This document shows positions 28,783 to 38,494 of a stretch of DNA of 64,000 nucleotides, one piece after another; position 1 is the stretch's first letter; every line of letters starts with the position of its first letter. This stretch comes from a virus, in IMG/VR virus record IMGVR_UViG_3300044701_003563; one strand, given 5' to 3'. The notes under the pieces are model-generated. The model worked only from the letters and a program-made list of their open reading frames with translations. It was not told the DNA's origin and did no database searches. The position numbers were made by a program, and so were the translations under genes.

Positions 28783-29457
28783 TCAGTATTTATTATGTGT
28801 ATTCCACTCCAATGCTTCTGCAACATTGGGAAATTGTCCAGCAAAAATACACTGACATTCTTTAGCAATATCCATATGCTCCTGCTGTGTTCCATTTTCA
28901 GAACGAAGTTGAATATAATGAATCCAAGAACGACAAGAACCAGTCATGTAAATTCGTGTAGGAGTTGCAAGAGGAAGAATGAATCTAGCACATTCTTTAG
29001 CAATACCATCATTCAACATTTGCTTATAAAGATCCATTCCTCTTTTGAAATAATCTTGATTCAACATTTCATACTTTTGAAGAACGAAAGGATCTACATC
29101 ATCAATACTATTCTGACGATTCTTGGTGTCCTGACGACGAAGTTCAGGAACGGGAATATTCCCAAGCAAAGAGCTATCAGCATACCTCTGTGAGAACTCC
29201 TGGAAGGTGAATGAACGATGCCTGAGGATCTGGGCAGCAATGCCCCTGGTAGTGTTGATCTCCAGGGTCATAAAGGCATGTTCAAAGATGCTCCAGTGCT
29301 CATGCTTGATACAATACCGAAGCAATCCAGCAGCAGTATCAAAGTTGAGTTGATTGTTTGGGTTGCTGACACGGGCAATGTAAGAGATTACCTCTTGAGC
29401 ATTCTGTTCAATCAGATCACCAGCACCCTGAGTGATAGCAATTAGTTTTGTATTCAT
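28783..29457 (-). CDS. thyX: Flavin-dependent thymidylate synthase
   Basis: RHRSFTFQEFSQRY ThyX signature; HWS.FE; ARF.LP. Confidence 0.96.
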   Translation of the reverse strand: MNTKLIAITQGAGDLIEQNAQEVISYIARVSNPNNQLNFDTAAGLLRYCIKHEHWSIFEHAFMTLEINTTRGIAAQILRHRSFTFQEFSQRYADSSLLGNIPVPELRRQDTKNRQNSIDDVDPFVLQKYEMLNQDYFKRGMDLYKQMLNDGIAKECARFILPLATPTRIYMTGSCRSWIHYIQLRSENGTQQEHMDIAKECQCIFAGQFPNVAEALEWNTHNKY

Positions 29458-29642
29458 TCTTCAATCTCCCAACTATCTTTTTCTTTTTTACGAAGTTTTT
29501 TGAGTTCCTTCATCATATCTTTAATCTCCTGATATGCAACTTCGGGAGACATTTTATCAGATACTTCAAGTCCAACAATATATTGAACTTTATCTCCAAA
29601 TCGAGCAAGTGCTCTTTCAAATTCAGTTAATGTTTCGTACAT
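29454..29642 (-). CDS. Hypothetical protein
   Basis: ORF with GGAGG RBS; overlaps the thyX start. Confidence 0.7.
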   Translation of the reverse strand: MYETLTEFERALARFGDKVQYIVGLEVSDKMSPEVAYQEIKDMMKELKKLRKKEKDSWEIEE

Positions 29643-29644
29643 TT

Positions 29645-29794
29645 TTAATCCTCCTCGTAGTATTCAATGTCATCATCAAGATCTGGTGGAAGAAAAGTTT
29701 GAAAATCATTTGATTCGGTTTTAACTTCTTCTTTAAGCATGGAAATAAGAATTTCCATGTTTTCTATTATCCACGAAACCTTTTCTTTATCCAT
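29645..29794 (-). CDS. Small acidic hypothetical protein (49 aa, MDKEKVSWIIENMEILISMLKEEV...YYEED)
   Basis: Manually translated; preceded by a TTGACT-17-TAAAAT promoter at 29819-29847. Confidence 0.65.
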   Translation of the reverse strand: MDKEKVSWIIENMEILISMLKEEVKTESNDFQTFLPPDLDDDIEYYEED

Positions 29795-29827
29795 GAAATA
29801 TATTTGTTCGACATGTACATTTTACAC

Positions 29828-29857
29828 AAAAAAAGAGAGGGAGTCAAGTCCCTCTCT
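29828..29857 (-). terminator. Intrinsic terminator closing the riboswitch operon
   Basis: 9-bp stem AGAGAGGGA/TCCCTCTCT, 6-nt loop, U-tract on the minus strand. Confidence 0.85.
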
Positions 29858-29863
29858 AATTTA

Positions 29864-29971
29864 TTAAGCAACTTGTGGTTGCTTTGCCATATTCAATTGT
29901 GCTTCTTTAAGTTTTTCGTCTTTTTCTTTTTTATCTTTAATAATCTGAAGAGGATTTAATTTGACAATCAT
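29864..29971 (-). CDS. Small protein (35 aa, MIVKLNPLQIIKDKKEKDEKLKEAQLNMAKQPQVA)
   Basis: ATGA overlap with the upstream gene stop; GGAGG RBS. Confidence 0.6.
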   Translation of the reverse strand: MIVKLNPLQIIKDKKEKDEKLKEAQLNMAKQPQVA

Positions 29972-30126
29972 TTTGCCACCTCCCCATTATTGCAAGGACG
30001 ATAGGGAATTCCACGGTATGTATTTTGTGGATGTGCTGGTGCATGTGTTTTAGAATACCACTTACGATATTCTTCTTTAGGTGTGTCGGTATTATACTGA
30101 CAACCCCTATAGGTTGCTTGTGACAT
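29968..30126 (-). CDS. DUF4278-like small protein (52 aa) with two TYRG.xY motifs
   Basis: MSQATYRGCQY...NTYRGIPY; AAGGAG RBS; directly downstream of the riboswitch-like element. Confidence 0.8.
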   Translation of the reverse strand: MSQATYRGCQYNTDTPKEEYRKWYSKTHAPAHPQNTYRGIPYRPCNNGEVAK

Positions 30127-30158
30127 TAGGTTTTCTCCTTAGTTTTTAGGTTAAAGAG

Positions 30159-30382
30159 CGTTCCTTCAGTCGGCTTTTGCGTCTATTTTGCACTCCTTCG
30201 GAGATATTTGCTTCACCTCCCAAATCAAATCATTTCGGATCTGCTTTGGCAATGAGTATGCATTAACCCGAGAAACAATCAATTGTGCTTGTAAACAAGT
30301 TAGAATGAGTGCTTCCATAGATGAACGATCCGTTCCGAGTCGGCTTACTTCCGTTTGCTATTTGCAAATAGCAAATGAACGT
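30159..30382 (-). ncRNA. Tandem or split glnA-type glutamine riboswitch
   Basis: Unit 1 (30381-30331): CGUUC-A-[palindromic stem]-CGGAAGUAAGCCGACUCG-GAACG. Unit 2 (30327-30159): CGUUC-A-UCUAU...AUAGA-CGCAAAAGCCGACUGAAG-GAACG. Lies upstream of a DUF4278-like gene. Confidence 0.78.
30166..30318 (-). CDS. 50-aa ORF nested in the riboswitch (MEALILTCLQAQLIVSRVNAYSLPKQIRNDLIWEVKQISPKECKIDAKAD)
   Basis: Manual translation; 153 nt open frame that fills the insertion exactly; no strong RBS. Confidence 0.6.
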   Translation of the reverse strand: MEALILTCLQAQLIVSRVNAYSLPKQIRNDLIWEVKQISPKECKIDAKAD

Positions 30383-30388
30383 AGAGGC

Positions 30389-30417
30389 ATTCTAATCCTC
30401 ATTATTTATGTAGTCAA
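30389..30417 (-). promoter_or_regulatory. Sigma70-type promoter TTGACT-17-TAGAAT with predicted start at about 30382; late-like ATAAATA in the spacer
   Basis: The spacing puts +1 on the first aptamer nucleotide. Confidence 0.7.
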
Positions 30418-30424
30418 GTCAGTT

Positions 30425-30440
30425 TGTAACACTTGTTACA
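30425..30440. promoter_or_regulatory. NtcA-like box TGTA-N8-TACA
   Basis: tGTAacacttgtTACa, intergenic; the GTA-N8-TAC core sits 8 nt upstream of the -35. Confidence 0.6.
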
Positions 30441-38349: not shown

Positions 38350-38452
38350 GTAGTAAGACCATCAGGGACATGGTGGAGTTACTATGCTCCCCGCACCCTC
38401 AGCGGGGATATGAGAGACGTATTTACCCTCCCTTAGGTCTCGGTTAACGGGA
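38350..38452 (-). ncRNA. PhotoRC-II-like structured psbA leader
   Basis: ACCGAGACC...GUCUCUCAUAUC, CCCCGC/GCGGGG hairpin and ACCAU/AUGGU hairpin in the psbA 5' UTR, matching my recollection of the motif. Confidence 0.72.
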
Positions 38453-38494
38453 GCACAATCTTTAAGAAACTTTACATTCCTTAACTTGTTGATG

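What the first reader, a model, noticed from the sequence alone, without database searches (positions are those of the whole stretch)
29828..30440. Self-contained phage nitrogen-sensing operon ending in a DUF4278-like protein
Seen: promoter whose +1 falls at the aptamer start, riboswitch, 50-aa ORF, 52-aa protein with two TYRG.xY motifs, 35-aa protein and terminator. None of these appear in the ORF track. Known: in cyanobacteria glutamine riboswitches precede gifB (glutamine synthetase inactivating factor IF17) and DUF4278 genes. Inference: the phage reads host Gln status and expresses small proteins that may modulate glutamine synthetase or nitrogen flux during infection.
Basis: partly seen in the sequence, partly recalled or inferred. 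Interest (0 to 1): 0.8.

Follow-up and report, generated by a model that had tools for sequence, protein, structure and literature searches.

The report
Cyanophage glutamine-riboswitch small-protein operon
A virus of cyanobacteria carries its own promoter-to-terminator copy of the host's glutamine-sensing unit (riboswitch plus a small DUF4278 protein), and the second RNA sensor is folded around a real 50-codon gene, so sensing nitrogen and translating that gene should compete on one RNA.

Summary
In order:
- an NtcA-type box
- a TTGACT-17-TAGAAT promoter
- a type-1 glutamine aptamer (Rfam RF01739, 32.6 bits, just under the cut-off of 35)
- a 50-aa ORF
- a 52-aa protein with two YRG motifs
- an overlapping 35-aa ORF
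- a terminator

Three points were added or corrected.
- The riboswitch is tandem. The 50-aa ORF lies inside the P2 loop of a second, split aptamer. It is a real gene: intact in 84 of 84 related loci, pN/pS 0.19.
- The 52-aa protein is related to DUF4278, the N-terminal YRG repeats of IF17. It scores below Pfam's cut-off and lacks the IF7-like C-terminal domain that inactivates glutamine synthetase. The 35-aa ORF does not supply that domain.
- A helix that hides ORF2's Shine-Dalgarno site directly follows aptamer 2, as in the published gifB ON-switch model.

Nitrogen sensing is therefore well supported. Inhibition of glutamine synthetase is not. The riboswitch-DUF4278 pairing is already known in cyanobacteria and cyanophages. 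I found no paper describing the gene-in-aptamer layout. Other agents of this scan have reported the same layout on other phage DNA.

The parts
30425..30440 (.). NtcA-type palindrome TGTA-N8-TACA, 8 nt upstream of the -35 hexamer (centre about -50.5 from the inferred start)
   Evidence: It is the only match in the 64-kb window, where 0.78 is expected by chance. A GTA-N8-TAC box with variable N8 lies upstream of aptamer 1 in 48 of 53 distinct related promoters.
30389..30417 (-). Sigma-70-type promoter TTGACT-17-TAGAAT; inferred start about 30383-30381
   Evidence: The consensus scan gives 10 of 12 matches. The same TTGACT-17-TATAAT arrangement sits at the same distance from aptamer 1 in S-PM2, DSL-LC03 and most IMG/VR relatives. 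The start site is inferred, not measured.
30327..30383 (-). Aptamer 1, compact type-1 glutamine aptamer (P1 CGUUC 30381-30377 with GGAACG 30336-30331)
   Evidence: RF01739, 32.6 bits (gathering score 35), E 6e-5, full model 1-53. Homologous aptamers in relatives score 28.9-35.6 bits. Host examples score 30-37.3 bits.
30317..30329 (-). Aptamer 2, 5' half: AUCGUUCA + P2 5' arm UCUAU, which contains the ORF1 start codon
   Evidence: Identical to the 5' end of the compact aptamer 2 of S-PM2 and S-CREM1, which score 33.3 and 33.5 bits on RF01739. Invariant in 53 aligned sequences.
30166..30318 (-). ORF1, 50 aa, helical hairpin with two conserved Cys, nested in the P2 loop of aptamer 2; its stop codon UGA (30168-30166) lies in the aptamer core
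   Evidence: 190 protein clusters. Intact in 84 of 84 loci. Entropy by codon position 0.43/0.19/0.86 and pN/pS 0.19. AlphaFold pLDDT 84.7, helices at 2-20 and 25-38. phrog_504 at E 5.5e-5.
30190..30312 (-). Extension helix closing the insert: GCACUC (30312-30307) pairs with GAGUGC (30195-30190)
   Evidence: 96% of cells are paired across 53 sequences. The first pair occurs as G-U, G-C and A-U, and the fourth shows one C-G to U-A change. The helix appears in the single-sequence MFE fold and in RNAalifold.
30159..30186 (-). Aptamer 2, 3' half: P2 3' arm AUAGA + CGCAAAAGCCGACUGAAGGAACG (P1 3' strand 30164-30159); it also encodes ORF1's last residues IDAKAD and the stop
   Evidence: The core ACGCAAAAGCCGACUGAAGGAACG is identical to S-PM2's compact aptamer 2. 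Third codon positions are invariant here, except codon 49, while they vary freely in the rest of ORF1.
30135..30158 (-). Expression platform: anti-SD CUCUUUA (30158-30152) pairs with SD UAAGGAG (30141-30135) of ORF2
   Evidence: In the MFE fold the SD is paired with the bases just 3' of P1 in 35 of 37 distinct platforms. There are two sequence classes that change on both sides. The layout matches the gifB model in PMC6212724.
29968..30126 (-). ORF2, 52 aa, two YRGxxY repeats, DUF4278-type
   Evidence: PF14105 at E 2.9e-4, 21.6 bits, below the cut-off of 25.3. A profile of the phage ORF2s finds PF14105 proteins. hhalign to the IF17-like N-terminus gives probability 91%, E 1e-6. phrog_5049 at E 3.7e-10.
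29864..29971 (-). ORF3, 35 aa, Lys/Glu-rich peptide (helix guessed from composition) ending ..LKEAQLNMAKQPQVA; its start overlaps the ORF2 stop (AUGA)
   Evidence: The AUGA overlap is kept in 65 of 68 loci. The motif is conserved in alignment A7. It is fused to the first YRG motif in S-CREM1, L011, L042, L048 and L055.
29827..29857 (-). Intrinsic terminator: 9-bp stem (5 G-C pairs), 6-nt loop, T7 run
   Evidence: Found by the terminator scan, which gave 3 sites in 1.5 kb against 0.7 expected. A comparable hairpin plus T run follows the last ORF in 34 of 44 distinct relatives.

Best explanation
This is a stand-alone, glutamine-riboswitch-controlled operon for three small proteins in a T4-like cyanophage (Kyanoviridae-like). 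It is built on the same plan as the host gifB / IF17-like units.

Anatomy (shown). Transcription starts from a sigma-70-type promoter that has an NtcA-type box just upstream. The leader holds two type-1 glutamine aptamers in tandem. The first is compact. The second has its P2 hairpin closed around a real 50-codon gene (ORF1). ORF1's AUG lies in the 5' arm of P2, and its UGA stop and last six codons are also the aptamer's 3' half. Directly 3' of aptamer 2's P1 an anti-SD pairs with the Shine-Dalgarno site of ORF2. ORF2 is a two-repeat DUF4278 protein. It is translationally coupled to ORF3, a 35-aa Lys/Glu-rich peptide.

Mechanism (inferred from the gifB model). High glutamine folds the aptamers, releases the SD and turns ORF2 and ORF3 on. 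The same fold buries ORF1's start codon, so ORF1 should be made mainly when the aptamer is open, that is at low glutamine. Ribosomes translating ORF1 would in turn prevent aptamer 2 from forming.

Targets. The proteins' targets are unknown. ORF2 is related to the N-terminal part of IF17 and lacks the part that inhibits glutamine synthetase.
For: - Aptamer 1: RF01739, 32.6 bits, E 6e-5.
- Aptamer 2: compact tandem second aptamers in S-PM2 and S-CREM1 score 33.3 and 33.5 bits. Their flanks are identical to the two halves that bracket ORF1 here.
- Linkage: in all 84 loci that encode ORF1, it starts inside CGTTCATCTATGGA. In 82 it ends at GAAGGAACG; the other two read GAAAGGAACG.
- ORF1 is coding: codon-position entropies 0.43/0.19/0.86, pN/pS 0.19, indels only in multiples of three, and invariant third positions only where it overlaps the aptamer.
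- Pairing: P1, P2 and the extension helix are 96-100% paired, against 58% or less when partners are slid. The covariation score exceeds all 500 shuffles.
- Platform: the SD is sequestered in 35 of 37 distinct platforms, in two sequence classes that change on both sides. The published model is the same (PMC6212724).
- ORF2: DUF4278 at 20-22 bits in every subtype. The reciprocal profile search finds PF14105 proteins. hhalign probability 91% to the IF17-like N-terminus.
- ORF3: AUGA overlap in 65 of 68 loci, and fusions with the YRG motif exist.
- Box, terminator and host parallel: the NtcA-type box is present in 48 of 53 distinct promoters. The terminator is supported. Host picocyanobacteria carry riboswitch plus DUF4278.
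Against: - Aptamer 1 is below Rfam's gathering score, and cmscan does not detect aptamer 2 at all, even at E up to 10.
- P1 and P2 of aptamer 2 never vary, so they give no covariation. Only two pairs change on both sides. The sequences are related, so the shuffle control overstates support.
- ORF1 has no Shine-Dalgarno site 5-10 nt before its AUG.
- A ribosome terminating at ORF1's UGA would cover the anti-SD about 8 nt downstream. It could therefore switch ORF2 on rather than off, which argues against a simple reciprocal toggle.
- The NtcA-type box is centred near -50.5. That matches neither the -41.5 of activated promoters nor the roughly -30 I recall for repressed gif promoters.
- ORF2 is under Pfam's cut-off.
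- No ligand binding, transcription start or translation data exist for this locus.
Confidence: 0.75

Rival explanations
1. The products are glutamine-synthetase inactivating factors, functional analogues of IF17/IF7. The phage shuts down host GS when glutamine is high.
For: ORF2 is related to the N-terminal YRG repeats of IF17. It has the same riboswitch control as gifB (PMC6212724). The published reviews leave open that short DUF4278 proteins of picocyanobacteria might act on a co-evolved GS.
Against: In bona fide IF17-like proteins the IF7-like domain is C-terminal (P0225, P0195, P0212). ORF2 ends before it. ORF3 shows no similarity to it (probability 0.2%). PMC6316151 states that the DUF4278 part is dispensable for IF17 function.
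Confidence: 0.12
2. Aptamer 2 is a relic broken by insertion of ORF1. Only aptamer 1 still senses glutamine, and the flanking aptamer halves persist merely because they now encode parts of ORF1.
For: cmscan does not recognise aptamer 2. A 130-nt insert in a small aptamer could hinder folding. The 3' half is under coding constraint as well.
Against: - Third codon positions are invariant only in the overlap, which protein coding alone does not explain.
- The 5' P1 strand lies outside ORF1 yet is invariant.
- The P2 arms differ from those of the compact version (UUCGC/GCGAA there, UCUAU/AUAGA here) but still pair.
- The anti-SD platform hangs on aptamer 2's P1, not on aptamer 1.
- The same design recurs on aptamer 1 in other phages.
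Confidence: 0.1
3. The 50-aa ORF is not translated. The insert is only a structured RNA extension of P2.
For: No SD before the AUG. The start codon is buried in a helix. The region folds somewhat better than shuffles (z -2.5).
Against: Three-base periodicity of substitutions and pN/pS 0.19. Four different Leu codons occur at codon 9 in four isolates. Indels come only in threes, and there are no stops in 84 loci. A divergent protein family conserves two Cys.
Confidence: 0.03

Closest known systems
Synechocystis gifB (IF17) leader: type-1 glutamine riboswitch plus NtcA control (Klahn et al. 2018, PMC6212724)
   Same: A glnA-type aptamer lies in the 5' UTR of a DUF4278-containing gene. An anti-SD sits directly 3' of P1. 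An NtcA-type box lies at the promoter. The expected behaviour is an ON switch at high glutamine.
   Different: - Here there are two aptamers in tandem.
- The second encloses a protein-coding gene.
- The regulated protein has only two YRG repeats and no IF7-like GS-binding domain.
- A coupled 35-aa ORF follows.
- The element is viral.
Prochlorococcus MED4 PMM1846 / Yfr6 and other short DUF4278 genes of marine picocyanobacteria (PMC6212724, PMC6316151)
   Same: A short DUF4278 protein without the IF7-like part, under a glutamine riboswitch and with an NtcA motif.
   Different: Those loci use the type-2 (Downstream-peptide) aptamer according to the papers. The host Synechococcus-type loci seen here have one RF01739 aptamer, a 73-aa three-repeat protein and no ORF1 or ORF3.
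Annotated cyanophage glnA riboswitches, e.g. S-CREM1 (PMC9964418) and S-PM2 p192/p193
   Same: Homologous locus: tandem aptamers, DUF4278-type ORF, ORF3-type peptide and terminator. In S-PM2 it also lies between speD and the thymidylate synthase gene.
   Different: In those two phages aptamer 2 is compact and has no nested gene. In S-CREM1 the YRG motif and the ORF3-type peptide are one 48-aa protein.

Membership tests
Type-1 glutamine riboswitch (glnA RNA, Rfam RF01739) | Covariance-model score at or above Rfam's gathering score (35 bits) | tested here: not met
   Aptamer 1 scores 32.6 bits, E 6e-5. Host aptamers in front of DUF4278 genes also straddle the cut-off, at 30-37.3 bits. Aptamer 2 is not detected.
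Type-1 glutamine riboswitch (glnA RNA, Rfam RF01739) | P1 CGUUC/GGAACG, a P2 hairpin and the conserved ACGGAAGUA junction, over the full-length model | tested here: met
   The alignment to model positions 1-53 has all helices formed. For aptamer 2, both halves are identical to the compact S-PM2 copy, which scores 33.3 bits. P1 and P2 are 99.6-100% paired in 53 sequences.
Type-1 glutamine riboswitch (glnA RNA, Rfam RF01739) | Selective binding of L-glutamine with a change in gene expression | not testable with these tools
   This needs in-line probing or ITC, and reporter assays.
DUF4278 (Pfam PF14105) | Score at or above Pfam's gathering score (25.3 bits) | tested here: not met
   21.6 bits, E 2.9e-4. 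Seven other phage ORF2-type variants score 14-22 bits, and the S-CREM1 fusion gives no hit.
DUF4278 (Pfam PF14105) | Repeated YRGxxY motif and detectable homology to family members | tested here: met
   Both YRG motifs are invariant in alignment A5. The A5 profile finds proteins carrying PF14105, including a Synechococcus protein. hhalign probability 91%, E 1e-6 to the IF17-like N-terminus.
IF17 / IF7 glutamine-synthetase inactivating factors (gifB, gifA) | IF7-like C-terminal domain that carries the GS-inactivating residues | tested here: not met
   ORF2 ends after the second repeat. ORF3 compared with IF17-like proteins gives hhalign probability 0.2%. The domain is present in P0225, P0195 and P0212.
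IF17 / IF7 glutamine-synthetase inactivating factors (gifB, gifA) | Binding to and inactivation of GS | not testable with these tools
A biochemical assay is needed.
NtcA-regulated promoter | GTA-N8-TAC box | tested here: met
   TGTA-N8-TACA at 30440-30425. A box is present in 48 of 53 distinct related promoters, with variable N8.
NtcA-regulated promoter | Box centred near -41.5 (activation), about 22 nt upstream of the -10 element | tested here: not met
   There are 31 nt between TAC and TAGAAT, which puts the centre near -50.5 from the inferred start. A second class of relatives has only 13 nt to a TATATA-type element. The start site was not measured.

The most novel reading that the evidence does not exclude
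One riboswitch gives two opposite outputs. With glutamine bound, aptamer 2 buries the start codon of its nested gene and frees the SD of the DUF4278/ORF3 pair. Without glutamine the nested gene is translated, and its ribosomes keep the sensor unfolded. The phage would then make different small proteins in nitrogen-poor and nitrogen-rich hosts from a single transcript.

A further speculation concerns the YRGxx[YF] repeats of ORF2. They have the same pattern as the PII T-loop apex (RYRGSEF), and host DUF4278 genes lie two genes upstream of glnB. These proteins might therefore act on PII partners rather than on GS. That rests on a motif only (hhalign probability 5%).
Probability: 0.3. Interest if true: 0.85.

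Novelty: new variant of a known kind. Interest (0 to 1): 0.66.

Why it matters
Glutamine riboswitches in front of DUF4278 genes are established in cyanobacteria and have been noted in cyanophages. The function of the phage units is unknown.

This locus shows three things:
- The phage version is a complete, conserved regulatory unit.
- A small metabolite aptamer can tolerate, and apparently exploit, a protein-coding gene inside one of its helices. The same nucleotides serve as ligand-binding core and as codons.
- The phage adds two partners not found in the host genomes sampled here: ORF1 (no convincing match in 401 cyanobacterial genomes) and ORF3 (absent from the host DUF4278 loci inspected).

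If the competition between folding and translation is real, it is a new way to obtain reciprocal gene expression from one riboswitch. It would also give a direct handle on how cyanophages read host nitrogen status, which bears on infection yield in nitrogen-limited waters.

Tried and rejected
- Rfam at the gathering threshold missed the riboswitch. The permissive scan found aptamer 1 only.
- ORF1 had no informative match in Pfam, NCBIfam or PDB sequences. Foldseek on its model gave only generic helical hairpins, E above 5. The ESM Atlas gave unnamed viral clusters below 0.9.
- ORF3 had no hit in Pfam, NCBIfam or PDB, and none against IF17-like proteins.
- ORF1 relatives in cellular genomes: a pattern scan of GTDB representatives found none. 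In 401 cyanobacterial genomes there were only marginal hits, three with internal stops and the rest near the E cut-off at about the number expected by chance.
- The only genome-contig hit for ORF2 (L086, a Prochlorococcus single-cell assembly) looks like a 189-kb cyanophage contig.
Viral scans with P0146 and P0174 found nothing. Alignment A3 was too divergent to scan with.
- Paralogy between ORF1 and the 68-aa ORF nested in aptamer 1 of other phages is not supported (hhalign probability 6%).
- ORF2 against PII: hhalign picks the T-loop at probability 5%, and BLASTP finds nothing.
- ORF2's structure model is of low confidence (pLDDT 65).
Full report
**Where and what.** The finding lies on the minus strand, between speD (30768-30442, PF02675) and a run of small ORFs followed by a thymidylate-synthase-like gene that I read as thyX (28783-29457). 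A PhotoRC-II RNA at 38374-38465 and the nearest database relatives place the window in a T4-like cyanophage. Those relatives are Synechococcus and Prochlorococcus myoviruses, and the five I opened are classified in Kyanoviridae. No isolate genome is close: at most 21% of an 8-kb stretch is covered, at about 72% identity.

**Observation.** All listed elements are present.
- The promoter is TTGACT (30417-30412), 17 nt, TAGAAT (30394-30389).
- The Rfam glutamine aptamer RF01739 spans 30383-30327. It begins 6 nt after the -10 hexamer and scores 32.6 bits, against a gathering score of 35. E is 6e-5 in a 1.1-kb search and 0.0036 in the whole window.
- The ORFs are 30318-30166 (50 aa), 30126-29968 (52 aa, with TYRGCQY and TYRGIPY) and 29971-29864 (35 aa).
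- A terminator follows, with a 9-bp stem at 29857-29834 and a T run.
- Single-site scans are weak on their own. Promoter-like sites are not enriched (7 found against 5.9 expected in shuffles).
- The whole layout, however, recurs in S-SRM01, DSL-LC03, DSL-LC02, S-PM2 and S-CREM1 and in 80 IMG/VR loci.

**The riboswitch is tandem and the second aptamer is split.**
- In S-PM2 and S-CREM1 two compact aptamers lie head to tail. The second scores 33.3 and 33.5 bits on RF01739. S-CREM1's authors annotate the 99-nt pair as one glnA riboswitch (PMC9964418).
- In the window, the sequence right after aptamer 1 is AUCGUUCAUCUAU (30329-30317). About 130 nt further on comes AUAGACGCAAAAGCCGACUGAAGGAACG (30186-30159).
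- The outer parts are identical to the 5' and 3' ends of S-PM2's compact aptamer 2. The inner arms UCUAU/AUAGA replace S-PM2's UUCGC/GCGAA and still pair.
- A further helix, GCACUC with GAGUGC (30312-30307 with 30195-30190), closes the insert. Both the single-sequence MFE fold and RNAalifold find it.
- On 53 distinct sequences, P1 is 100% paired, P2 99.6% and the extension helix 96%. Paired cells are 58% or less when partners are slid. The first pair of the extension helix occurs as G-U, G-C and A-U. No shuffle out of 500 reaches the observed covariation score.
- P1 and P2 never vary, so covariation evidence is thin. The case rests mainly on identity with the compact aptamers and on the constraint pattern described next.

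**The insert is a real gene.**
- ORF1 has 190 clusters of relatives. It is intact in all 84 loci, at 50-55 aa.
- In all 84 loci it begins inside CGTTCATCTATGGA. In 82 it ends at GAAGGAACG; the other two read GAAAGGAACG.
- Entropy by codon position is 0.43, 0.19 and 0.86, and pN/pS is 0.19. Length differences are whole codons.
- Among codons 45-51, which overlap the aptamer's 3' half, only codon 49 varies at its third position. This is the signature of a second, RNA-level constraint.
- The protein family reaches 47 representatives at 50% identity. Two Cys are invariant in the alignment of 22 divergent members.
- It models as a helical hairpin (pLDDT 84.7). It matches phrog_504, of unknown function.
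- It has no convincing relative in 401 sampled cyanobacterial genomes or in a GTDB pattern scan.
- Some public gene calls (P0191, P0198) run a divergent ORF1-like protein on into a DUF4278 ORF, through a stretch (DAKADWWNG, DAQVDWRNG) that would correspond to the aptamer's 3' half. My guess is that stop codons were read as sense. This suggests the nesting is wider than the close family.

**Expression platform.**
- Directly after aptamer 2's P1, CUCUUUA (30158-30152) can pair with ORF2's SD, UAAGGAG (30141-30135).
- In the MFE fold the SD is paired with these bases in 35 of 37 distinct platforms. Two sequence classes change on both sides: GCUCUUUA with UAAGGAG, and GCxCC with GGAGC.
- This is the arrangement proposed for gifB, where glutamine binding melts a short helix next to P1 and frees the ribosome-binding site (PMC6212724).
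- I therefore infer an ON switch for ORF2 and ORF3 at high glutamine.
- ORF1's AUG (30318-30316) lies in the 5' arm of P2, so the folded aptamer should hide it. Conversely, translation of ORF1 must unfold aptamer 2.
- Whether the result is reciprocal expression is open. A ribosome stopping at ORF1's UGA, about 8 nt before the anti-SD, might instead unmask ORF2.
- RNAalifold also finds that aptamer 1's 3' P1 strand can pair with aptamer 2's 5' P1 strand. That hairpin would leave ORF1's AUG free.

**ORF2.**
- Pfam gives DUF4278 at 21.6 bits, E 2.9e-4, under the cut-off of 25.3. Seven other phage ORF2-type variants give 14-22 bits, and the S-CREM1 fusion gives no hit.
- A profile of the phage ORF2s retrieves proteins that carry PF14105, including one from a Synechococcus genome.
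- That profile aligns to the first two YRG repeats of IF17-like proteins with probability 91%, E 1e-6.
- The IF17-like proteins (P0225, P0195, P0212) consist of several YRG repeats followed by a C-terminal IF7-like domain.
- ORF2 has two repeats and nothing more. The literature states that DUF4278 is the N-terminal part of IF17, that it is dispensable for GS inactivation, and that it promotes stability (PMC6316151).
- ORF2's own model has low confidence (pLDDT 65). Each YRG sits at the turn of a short hairpin.

**ORF3.**
- It overlaps ORF2's stop as AUGA in 65 of 68 loci.
- It keeps a motif of the form hydrophobic-IK..K.KE..L..AQL.MA. I read it as helical from composition only; no model was made.
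- In S-CREM1 and several IMG/VR loci it is fused to the first YRG motif. In L024, L049 and L073 it is the only ORF after the switch.
- It is thus the most constant product of these operons and probably works with ORF2.
- It shows no similarity to the IF7-like domain or to anything in Pfam, NCBIfam or PDB sequences.

**Promoter region.**
- TGTA-N8-TACA (30440-30425) is the only such site in the window.
- A GTA-N8-TAC box with variable N8 precedes aptamer 1 in 48 of 53 distinct relatives. In one class, TTGACT-17-TATAAT follows it, as here. In another, only a TATATA/ATAAATA-type element lies 13 nt downstream of the box.
- The box fits NtcA's consensus. Its position, about -50.5 here, fits neither the textbook activating position nor, as far as I recall, the position of the repressed gif promoters. 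Its action is open.

**Host comparison.** Picocyanobacterial genomes have one RF01739 aptamer, a 73-aa three-repeat DUF4278 protein and another small ORF. In four genomes glnB follows. They have no ORF1 and no ORF3.

**Verdict.** The nitrogen-sensing reading is well supported, and the DUF4278 relationship is real but sub-threshold. The link to glutamine synthetase is not supported by the domain content. The pairing of glutamine riboswitches with DUF4278 genes, tandem glnA RNAs, and their presence in cyanophages are all published (PMC2864571, PMC6212724, PMC9964418). I found no paper describing a coding gene nested in the aptamer. Other agents of this scan have reported the same layout in many other phage genomes. 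I formed my reading before seeing those notes.

Noticed in passing
L018:946-1149, L027, L030, L045, L047, L051, L053, L059, L064, L065, L070, L078, L079, L080: In 14 of 54 distinct relatives aptamer 1 is also split. After CGTTCATCCTATG comes a 67-68-aa ORF with a signal-peptide-like N-terminus and two Cys 36 residues apart. Then AATAGGACGGAAGTAAGCCGACTCGGAACGG follows. The start codon again lies in the 5' arm of P2. Similarity to ORF1 is not significant (hhalign probability 6%).
   Followed up: partly
L005:1609-1755 (S-CREM1), L011:1395-1544, L042, L048, L055; L024:665-751, L049, L073: In some phages the first YRG motif and the ORF3-type peptide form one 43-49-aa protein. In others only a 28-aa ORF3-type peptide follows the riboswitch. 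ORF3 thus looks like the most constant product.
   Followed up: partly
L098, L100, L101, L103 (picocyanobacterial genomes): Host DUF4278 genes (73 aa, three YRG repeats, one RF01739 aptamer) lie two genes upstream of glnB (PII). The PII T-loop RYRGSEF has the same YRGxx[YF] pattern as the DUF4278 repeats. hhalign picks that loop, but at probability 5% only.
   Followed up: partly
L086 (QCLS01000003.1, Prochlorococcus sp. AG-418-C09, 189-kb contig): This contig of a single-cell assembly looks like a cyanophage genome. It carries a compact glutamine aptamer, a 35-aa DUF4278 ORF, the acidic small ORF seen next to the window's operon, and an ORF that by eye resembles a GIY-YIG homing endonuclease.
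   Followed up: no
window 29645-29794 (-) and 29454-29642 (-): A 49-aa ORF with an acidic tail (..DDDIEYYEED; phrog_2848) and a DUF7219 protein follow the terminator. The acidic ORF also follows the DUF4278 ORF in the single-cell contig L086 and in merged public gene calls (P0183, P0189, P0192).
   Followed up: no
window 30401-30408 (-) and related promoters: CATAAATA lies in the promoter spacer. Relatives carry TATATAA or ATAAATA elements right after the -35 hexamer or just before the aptamer. This resembles T4-type late promoters, so the unit may have more than one promoter.
   Followed up: partly
P0183, P0191, P0198, P0228 (public gene calls): Several database proteins of 127-152 aa appear to be read-through merges of these small ORFs and the RNA between them. 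My guess is that stop codons were read as sense. Automated calls at such loci are therefore unreliable.
   Followed up: no
window 30331-30336 with 30323-30327 (-): The 3' P1 strand of aptamer 1 and the 5' P1 strand of aptamer 2 can pair with each other (RNAalifold). This hairpin would exclude both aptamers and leave ORF1's AUG single-stranded.
   Followed up: no
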